From the NCBI GenBank assembly GCA_951406725.2, contig OX597831.1, positions 10,478,001 through 10,542,000 on the forward strand: a DNA stretch of 64,000 bases, read 5' to 3'. The translations under genes and the position numbers were made by a program. This document shows positions 31,827 through 32,038 of this stretch, in pieces; the first letter of the stretch is position 1; each line of letters begins with the position of its first letter. The notes under the pieces were generated by a model. It did no database searches. It saw only the letters and a program-made list of their open reading frames with translations, and was not told the DNA's origin. The stretch is from Octopus vulgaris. Taxonomy: Eukaryota.

Positions 31827-32038
31827 AAAGTTAATCCAAACAAGAAAACAAAAACAAAAAAACAACAACGCAAGGACGTGGAACAAACAAAATATTATTG
31901 GACGCTCAGGAAAGAAGGGAAGAAGCGGGGTTTGACGTTTCGAGCGGAGCTCTTCGTCGGAAACATAGGAGAAGGAAAGATCCCGAGAAGGGAAGACAGG
32001 GGAAAAAATCGCTAGTGATACAGACGAGGTCACATACT
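31827..32038 (-). mobile_element. ~210-bp (TA)n-flanked element with a minimal hammerhead (31930-31964)
   Basis: Minus strand gttt-CCGACGA-a-gagc tcc gctc-GAAAC-GTC-aaac. (TA)n lies on both sides. Confidence 0.75.

What the first reader, a model, noticed from the sequence alone, without database searches (positions are those of the whole stretch)
31827..32038. Cleanest mini-element: ~210 bp between two (TA)n with a 35-nt hammerhead
GUUU-CCGACGA-A-GAGC(UCC)GCUC-GAAAC-GUC-AAAC has perfect stems I and II and a GUC triplet. Stem III is only the ACGU palindrome, so it could form only intermolecularly as a dimer. The element has no ORF, TIR or Pol III boxes.
Basis: partly seen in the sequence, partly recalled or inferred. 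Interest (0 to 1): 0.7.

Follow-up and report, generated by a model that had tools for sequence, protein, structure and literature searches.

The report
Penelope retroelement tail with minimal hammerhead
This 210-base piece is one of thousands of copies of a repeat carrying a predicted self-cutting RNA motif of a kind already described at the ends of Penelope-like jumping genes, and it is most likely a leftover tail of such an element, not a new system.

Summary
A 210-bp island (31828-32037) lies between two (TA)n tracts, and its minus strand carries a 35-nt type I hammerhead with a loopless ACGU helix III. No shuffle produced such a motif. It is a high-copy family: 2,254-7,352 contigs per run were laid on it in four runs of four organism labels, and diverged relatives part from this copy exactly at the edges of the motif. 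The design is published: Cervera and de la Pena 2014 describe loopless, dimer-type minimal hammerheads in Penelope-like element (PLE) ends, and 29 of their 56 examples have the same ACGU. The 106 nt from predicted cut to (TA)n matches ORF-bearing PLE loci (94 and 111 nt). An inactive monomer hairpin is predicted to beat the dimer, so this solo copy probably cuts poorly or not at all. Open: 5'-truncated tail of a coding PLE (favoured) or a fixed-ended non-coding passenger. No parent ORF was seen and cleavage is untested. New member of a known kind; low interest.

The parts
31761..31827 (.). (TA)n tract on the element's 3' side (likely target site)
   Evidence: (TRF, 34 copies)
31828..32037 (-). 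210-nt repeat copy; inferred 3' terminal (pLTR / 3' UTR) segment of a Penelope-like element
   Evidence: island; high-copy family; anatomy of PLE loci
31965..32037 (-). pyrimidine-rich 5' flank of the ribozyme (76% C+U); this copy belongs to a minor subfamily at 32009-32028
   Evidence: depth drop and loose ends at 32008-32012
31930..31964 (-). minimal type I hammerhead motif, 35 nt, no loop 3
   Evidence: matches consensus of PMC4209133 Fig. S3 except C4
31961..31964 (-). stem I, 5' strand
31954..31960 (-). catalytic core strand C3-C4-G5-A6-C7-G8-A9 (U4C variant at 31959)
   Evidence: U4 in 21-32% of laid depth
31942..31953 (-). extra A between positions 9 and 10.1, then stem II (4 bp, G10.1-C11.1) with a 3-nt loop
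31934..31941 (-). GAAA core, ACGU palindrome (31938-31935) as dimer helix III, and NUH triplet; predicted cut 3' of 31934
   Evidence: N17 is U in 36-90% and A in 2-11% of laid depth
31930..31933 (-). stem I, 3' strand
31901..31908 (-). short motif 3' of the ribozyme that recurs in loose ends of diverged relatives; role unexplained
   Evidence: loose-end tables; alternative helix III using its GUC rejected
31828..31929 (-). pyrimidine/U-rich 3' tail; 106 nt from predicted cut to (TA)n
32038..32273 (.). (TA)n tract on the element's 5' side
   Evidence: TRF, 118 copies

Best explanation
The 210-nt island is a copy of a high-copy repeat with a loopless type I hammerhead motif, and it is most likely the 5'-truncated tail (solo pseudo-LTR) of a Penelope-like retroelement, inferred to have been written into a (TA)n tract by the element's own reverse transcriptase and endonuclease. 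Steps: (1, inferred from PLE literature) a GIY-YIG endonuclease nicks (TA)n and reverse transcription starts at the element's fixed 3' end, 106 nt past the predicted cut; (2, inferred) copying stopped after about 210 nt, before reaching the ORF; (3, inferred from PMC4209133 and PMC6765202) in the tandem parent RNA two such motifs pair through their ACGU palindromes into a double hammerhead that trims the transcript; (4, predicted) this solo copy has no partner in cis, a C4 core and a more stable inactive hairpin, so it is likely a silent remnant.
For: Motif beyond chance. Meets the published PLE min-HHR features: extra nucleotide between 9 and 10.1, G10.1-C11.1, palindromic 15.2-16.2, short helix I, U-rich flanks; 29 of 56 published examples have loopless ACGU (13 GUC, 15 GUU, 1 GUA; my count of Fig. 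S3), and the Acropora Neptune example has the same C7, extra A and 4-bp helix II. That paper reports most motifs as single copies probably from truncated PLEs. High copy: 7352, 3888, 6476, 2254 contigs laid in 4 of 4 runs. Depth peaks over the motif, and diverged relatives leave at its edges (loose ends before 31930/31931 in 4 of 4 runs, behind 31963 in 2 of 4). Frequent core changes fall on tolerated positions (N4 pyrimidine, N17 not G); the other listed core changes are CpG-type at 1-7%. In 3 of 13 ORF-bearing PLE loci my descriptor found a sense hammerhead 167-575 nt behind the ORF, and in the 2 with a downstream TA tract the cut-to-TA distance is 94 and 111 nt. A Neptune-type PLE ORF fragment lies between TA tracts 1.4 kb away, so TA-targeting PLEs exist in this genome. 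One 1312-nt contig of an RNA-type run carries the element at one end and runs about 1.2 kb further on the 5' side (record 12).
Against: No ORF was seen joined to this family: no genome is held, the 1312-nt contig could not be read and may be a host transcript, and the nearby ORF fragment has its own, different hammerhead. Loose ends behind 32008-32012 converge near the window copy's boundary, and the 4 of 32 listed pieces that reach 32032-32037 end there or within 5 letters, which hints at a shared 5' end. No DNA similarity between the element and the 13 PLE loci (blastn); their flanks are less pyrimidine-rich (50-60% against 74-76%) and their helix III palindromes are 6-8 nt. A stem I-breaking change at 31932 has 5-31% of depth with no compensating change listed, and no compensatory base-pair change was seen anywhere in the motif. 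None of the 56 published examples has C4. Helix II is shorter than in most PLE motifs.
Confidence: 0.55

Rival explanations
1. A discrete non-coding element of about 210 nt with two fixed ends, derived from a PLE terminal repeat and mobilised in trans by a PLE enzyme (the SINE-like reading of the first reader).
For: Loose ends behind 32008-32012 converge on the same short motif near the boundary; 4 of 32 listed pieces stop at 32032-32040; under 1 in 100 laid contigs run on into unlike sequence in the DNA-type runs. Non-autonomous PLE derivatives are described (passages of PMC8557442; bioRxiv 2026.07.22.740005).
Against: Contigs of high-copy repeats break at every variant, so their ends are weak evidence of termini; both ends were partly masked as repeats (31827-31873, 32029-32056). 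19-45 contigs per run ran past the stretch's end (by inference the 32038 end, since the other end had no depth), and one runs 1.2 kb further. No internal promoter found.
Confidence: 0.3
2. A solo monomer of a tandem non-LTR retrozyme that replicates through a circular RNA of about 210 nt.
For: Length is in the retrozyme range (150-450 bp, passages of PMC7229834); monomers of retrozyme families are common; the cut site lies in the middle of the copy, as for a permuted circle.
Against: No tandem copy in the window; no back-joint in 4 plus 4 runs (with masked ends); loose ends at the 5' boundary do not read into the 3' end sequence; described retrozymes mostly carry canonical hammerheads with loop-loop contacts, while minimal ones are tied to PLEs.
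Confidence: 0.08
3. A repeat of other origin (tail of another non-LTR element or an unclassified SINE) in which the hammerhead-like letters are a vestige or serve another fold.
For: The predicted fold is the core-sequestering hairpin, not the hammerhead; no Rfam hit; no compensatory change seen; C4 and U17 both lower activity by the literature.
Against: Chance level below 1 in 20,000; full match to an independent published consensus; similarity among diverged relatives is confined to the motif; 5 other published rows have the same C7 with ACGU followed by C or U, which allows the same hairpin.
Confidence: 0.07

Closest known systems
Minimal type I hammerheads (min-HHR) of metazoan Penelope-like elements (Cervera and de la Pena 2014, PMC4209133; read: main text parts 1-2 of 4, supplement parts 1-2 of 3)
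   Same: No loop 3, ACGU palindrome, extra nucleotide 9/10.1, G10.1-C11.1, 3-5 bp helix I, GUC or GUU triplet, U-rich flanks, thousands of mostly single copies per genome, proposed dimer activity.
   Different: C4 instead of U4 (0 of their 56 examples, though their descriptor fixed the core); short 4-bp helix II with a 3-nt loop; no parent ORF shown here.
Small PLE-associated hammerheads that cleave as dimers (Lunse, Weinberg and Breaker, RNA Biol 14:1499; not held; known here only from its title and the summary in PMC6765202)
   Same: Reduced palindromic stem III, type I, dimer cleavage, link to PLEs.
   Different: Could not check whether C4 cores or this family are in that set.
Neptune- and Naiad-type PLEs with microsatellite bias (Craig et al. 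2021, PMC8557442; passages and a supplement search)
   Same: Insertion into (TA)n without a discernible target-site duplication; truncated copies.
   Different: Naiads are reported to lack canonical hammerheads; three motif strings of this element were not found in that supplement (one strand only). Clade of the parent unknown.
Metazoan non-LTR retrozymes (PMC7229834, passages; bioRxiv 10.64898/2026.07.22.740005, parts 1-3 of 5)
   Same: Non-coding, 150-450 nt, type I hammerhead, proposed to derive from pLTRs.
   Different: Defined by tandem units; no tandem or circle junction seen here; minimal rather than canonical hammerhead.
Natural U4C hammerhead variant of a viroid (cited in Perreault et al. 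2011, PMC3088659; passages)
   Same: C at core position 4; CYGANGA is also used as a search descriptor (PMC13481778, passages).
   Different: There a viroid motif with tertiary contacts; here a minimal motif in a genomic repeat where C4 is the majority form.

Membership tests
Type I hammerhead ribozyme | Core C3-Y4-G5-A6-N7-G8-A9 and G12-A13-A14-A15.1 | tested here: met
   position 4 is C (known weaker variant)
Type I hammerhead ribozyme | NUH triplet | tested here: met
   GUC in this copy; only U and A listed as other letters at position 17, no G row at the 3% threshold
Type I hammerhead ribozyme | Helices I and II can form | tested here: met
   4 bp each; but the hammerhead-compatible monomer is -3.8 against -8.8 kcal/mol for the inactive hairpin
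Type I hammerhead ribozyme | Covariation in helices | tested here: inconclusive
   no compensatory change listed at 3% or more; one G-U-preserving and one pair-breaking change in stem I; individual copies could not be aligned
Type I hammerhead ribozyme | Site-specific self-cleavage | not testable with these tools
   contigs cannot show RNA ends
Rfam hammerhead families | Covariance model score | tested here: not met
   no hit
PLE min-HHR | Palindromic 15.2-16.2 with no or tiny loop 3 | tested here: met
   ACGU at 31938-31935
PLE min-HHR | Extra nucleotide between 9 and 10.1; G10.1-C11.1 pair | tested here: met
   A at 31953; G31952-C31942 (features)
PLE min-HHR | Large dispersed family | tested here: met
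   thousands of contigs laid per run; not a copy number
Penelope-like element (pLTR remnant) | Linked RT plus GIY-YIG ORF in longer copies | tested here: inconclusive
   none in the window; one unread 1.2-kb extension; no genome held; 24-mer absent from three collections
Penelope-like element (pLTR remnant) | Hammerhead about 100 nt from the 3' end, microsatellite target, no clear TSD | tested here: met
   106 nt against 94 and 111 nt in 2 of 13 loci where measurable
Penelope-like element (pLTR remnant) | Variable 5' truncation | tested here: inconclusive
   ends masked or confounded by contig breaks
Non-LTR retrozyme | Head-to-tail tandem units, each with a hammerhead | tested here: inconclusive
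   not met in the window; no back-joints in 8 laid run-calls, but ends were masked
Non-LTR retrozyme | Abundant circular RNA | not testable with these tools
   only contigs available
tRNA-derived SINE | Pol III A and B boxes, tRNA-like head | tested here: not met
MITE | Terminal inverted repeats | tested here: not met

The most novel reading that the evidence does not exclude
The family is a discrete, fixed-ended 210-nt non-coding passenger of TA-targeting Penelope-like elements that spreads as single copies rather than as tandems, and it reached thousands of copies in several species with a doubly weakened hammerhead (C4 core, mostly GUU). These two changes also destabilise the inactive monomer hairpin (-9.9 for U4/C17, -6.5 kcal/mol for C4/U17), so they may be tuned to favour the dimer, which a solo RNA could form only with another copy or with the parent element's RNA.
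Probability: 0.2. Interest if true: 0.45.

Novelty: new member of a known kind. Interest (0 to 1): 0.2.

Why it matters
As a PLE tail it is ordinary: the motif type, its dimer logic and its abundance are published. What it adds is small: a family in which the weaker U4C core is the majority form, and mixed C/U states at positions 4 and 17, which give a natural set for asking whether PLE minimal hammerheads need to cut at all, a question the papers read leave open. If the ends are fixed, it would be a single-copy, SINE-like passenger of animal PLEs, distinct from tandem retrozymes.

Tried and rejected
Whole-genome copy count and terminus map: no genome held. Other copies in the window: none (blastn). 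Rfam: no hammerhead (two chance-level hits at E 4-6). Exact 24-mer of the motif in metagenome, viral and prokaryote genome contigs: 0 each. Motif strings in paper full texts: 0 papers; in two supplements: 0. Alternative intramolecular helix III using the downstream GUC at 31903-31901: pair probability 0.0001 or less, and position 1.1 is unpaired (the first attempt used indices off by one and is discarded). Thermodynamic support from whole-element folding: none, z = 0.73. Linking the element to the Neptune ORF fragment at 30064-30405: rejected, because TA tracts and other repeats lie between and that fragment abuts its own different hammerhead. Expression: contigs of two RNA-guessed runs hold the family, but the tool marks them as guesses and intronic copies would look the same, so this is not used as evidence; the higher U4 share in one of them (52% against 26%) rests on few contigs. 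Bacterial promoter scan is irrelevant to this genome. Of 13 PLE loci, 10 gave no hit with my descriptor; by eye L005-L007 have hammerhead-like cores with a U-U closing pair, L008-L009 do not reach the ORF end. The host looks like an octopus; that rests on recall of its repeats and on earlier AI notes, not on a call.

Full report
Observation. A 210-nt island, 31828-32037, lies between TA tracts. On the minus strand, 31964-31930 reads as a type I hammerhead: 4-bp stem I, core CCGACGA, one extra A, 4-bp stem II with a 3-nt loop, GAAAC directly followed by GUC, so that helix III is only the palindrome ACGU. A strict descriptor finds this one site in the window, none in 200 block-shuffled windows and none in 20,000 shuffles of the element; a relaxed one hit 3 of 20,000. 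There is no inverted repeat, no tRNA and no perfect Pol III box. Rfam has no match. Sitting between TA tracts is common here: 22 islands of 60-900 nt do so.

It is a large family. No genome is held and the window has no second copy, so I used public runs. Twenty of 24 listed runs hold part of the stretch, under four organism labels plus one small-share metagenome. In four runs, one per organism label, 7352, 3888, 6476 and 2254 contigs were laid. These are contig counts, not copy numbers. Depth is highest over the ribozyme, and groups of contigs from diverged relatives leave the alignment at its edges: before 31930/31931 in all four runs and behind 31963 in two (again).

Variation in the motif (depth-weighted shares). 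Position 17 is U in 36, 85, 72 and 90% and A in 2-11%; no G is listed. Position 4 is the canonical U in 21-32%, so C4 is the majority. Other listed core changes are CpG-type and reach 1-7%. The frequent changes thus fall where hammerheads tolerate them: H at 17 (passages of PMC3138052) and Y at 4 (passages of PMC3088659, which notes that U4C lowers activity in vitro yet supports viroid infectivity; PMC13481778 uses CYGANGA as descriptor). Against strict selection: a pair-breaking change in stem I (31932) has 5-31% with no compensating change listed, and no compensatory pair change was seen. Shares are biased toward the query and toward deep contigs.

What it is. Cervera and de la Pena (PMC4209133; main text parts 1-2 of 4; supplement parts 1-2 of 3) defined a minimal hammerhead with no loop 3 that works as a dimer, found it in the terminal repeats of Penelope-like elements, and reported thousands of mostly single copies per genome, probably from truncated elements. 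Their emergent features (extra nucleotide between 9 and 10.1, G10.1-C11.1, palindromic 15.2-16.2, short helix I, U-rich flanks) are all met. By my count 29 of their 56 examples have the loopless ACGU (13 GUC, 15 GUU, 1 GUA); none has C4, though their descriptor fixed the core. A review (PMC6765202, passages) states the same dimer model and cites Lunse et al., which is not held.

Anatomy against real PLE loci. The window holds a PLE ORF fragment at 30064-30405 on the minus strand, 90% identical to P0001 and 73% to P0002, which has RT and GIY-YIG matches; its cysteine linker points to the Neptune/Nematis type (linker described in passages of PMC8557442). It lies between TA tracts, back to back with a different hammerhead, so it is not this element's parent, but it shows TA-lodged PLEs in this genome. 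With an alignment of these proteins I fetched 13 related loci. My descriptor found a sense-strand hammerhead 167, 256 and 575 nt behind the ORF in 3 of 13; in the two with a TA tract downstream, the cut-to-TA distance is 94 and 111 nt, against 106 nt here. This copy keeps 77 nt upstream of the core, too little to reach an ORF. Those loci share no DNA similarity with the element, have 6-8 nt palindromes and less pyrimidine-rich flanks, so they are analogues, not the parent.

Truncated tail or discrete element. This is not settled. For a shared 5' end: loose ends behind 32008-32012 converge on one short motif near the boundary, and the 4 of 32 listed pieces that reach 32032-32037 stop there or within 5 letters (my reading of the record coordinates). 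For a longer parent: 19-45 contigs per run go past the end, and one 1312-nt contig of depth 529 in an RNA-guessed run starts in the ribozyme, matches this copy's subfamily (3 other letters and 1 gap over 84 positions) and continues about 1.2 kb on the 5' side. I could not read it; it may be a host transcript. Both ends were partly masked as repeats, and contigs of such families break at every variant. No back-joint suggesting tandems or circles appeared. I put the truncated tail at 0.55, a fixed-ended passenger at 0.3, a retrozyme monomer at 0.08 and other origins at 0.07. Non-autonomous PLE derivatives are already described, so either main reading is a known kind.

How it likely works. Shown: the letters, the family, the variants, the spacing. 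Inferred from the papers: endonuclease nick in (TA)n, reverse transcription from a fixed 3' end, early stop, and double-hammerhead cleavage between two motifs of a tandem parent RNA. Predicted for this copy: the monomer folds with GACG of the core paired to CGUC (-8.8 kcal/mol, pair probability 0.96-0.98) rather than with stems I and II alone (-3.8); the double hammerhead scores -5.9 for both strands against twice -8.8, and the ACGU duplex is -1.7 against -8.3 for a 6-nt palindrome (nearest-neighbour energies ignore core contacts). Published monomers did not cut and dimers cut weakly; 8 of 9 frog dimer elements did not cut (bioRxiv 2026.07.22.740005, parts 1-3 of 5). So the proposed concentration-dependent assay may well be negative without changing the assignment. 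One untested idea: C4 and U17 each weaken the inactive hairpin (U4/C17 -9.9, C4/C17 -8.8, U4/U17 -7.7, C4/U17 -6.5), so the common states may trade chemistry for less misfolding; linkage between the two sites could not be read.

Novelty. Searches for the family's motif strings in full texts, for U4C-type terms and for octopus plus Penelope plus hammerhead found no paper on this family; an octopus repeat annotation reports 190 Penelope-like families covering 6.8% of that genome and does not mention ribozymes (PMC13282606, passages and supplement search). Earlier AI notes on this genome read similar motifs the same way; they are not independent support. Verdict: real feature, new member of a known kind, interest 0.2.

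Noticed in passing
window 30609-30648 (+): Second hammerhead-like motif with the U3-A8 core covariation, 7-bp stem I, 2-bp stem II and a 6-nt palindrome; back to back with the inverted PLE ORF fragment, the whole unit (30024-30810) between TA tracts: a typical inverted truncated PLE insertion.
   Followed up: partly
window 30064-30405 (-): PLE ORF fragment (thumb to cysteine linker, broken off at the start of the endonuclease by a TA-rich tract), 90% identical to P0001.
   Followed up: yes
window 34019-34060 (+) and 32932-32996: Decayed hammerhead core with no valid helix III; its downstream flank has an inverted 67-nt copy (85%) about 1.1 kb upstream, perhaps another inverted PLE end.
   Followed up: partly
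window 32640-32745 (+) and 46364-46462 (-): Two copies (74% alike) of a repeat with a GAAA followed by a 6-nt palindrome, beside (TACA)n tracts; hammerhead-like but not passing my descriptor.
   Followed up: partly
window 31901-31908: Short motif 3' of the ribozyme that recurs in loose ends of diverged relatives whose purine-rich flanks differ; complementary to the 3' strand of stem II; role unexplained.
   Followed up: partly
L005, L006, L007, 175-205 nt behind the ORF: Hammerhead-like cores in PLE 3' regions whose stem II is closed by a U-U mismatch, missed by my descriptor.
   Followed up: no
window 61671-61975 (-): ORF fragment that looks like the C-terminal end of a CR1/L2-type LINE protein (recalled likeness, from the translation).
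   Followed up: no
window 53030-53399: Two-copy 184-bp tandem of a SINE-like repeat; likeness to an octopus SINE is recalled, not tested.
   Followed up: no
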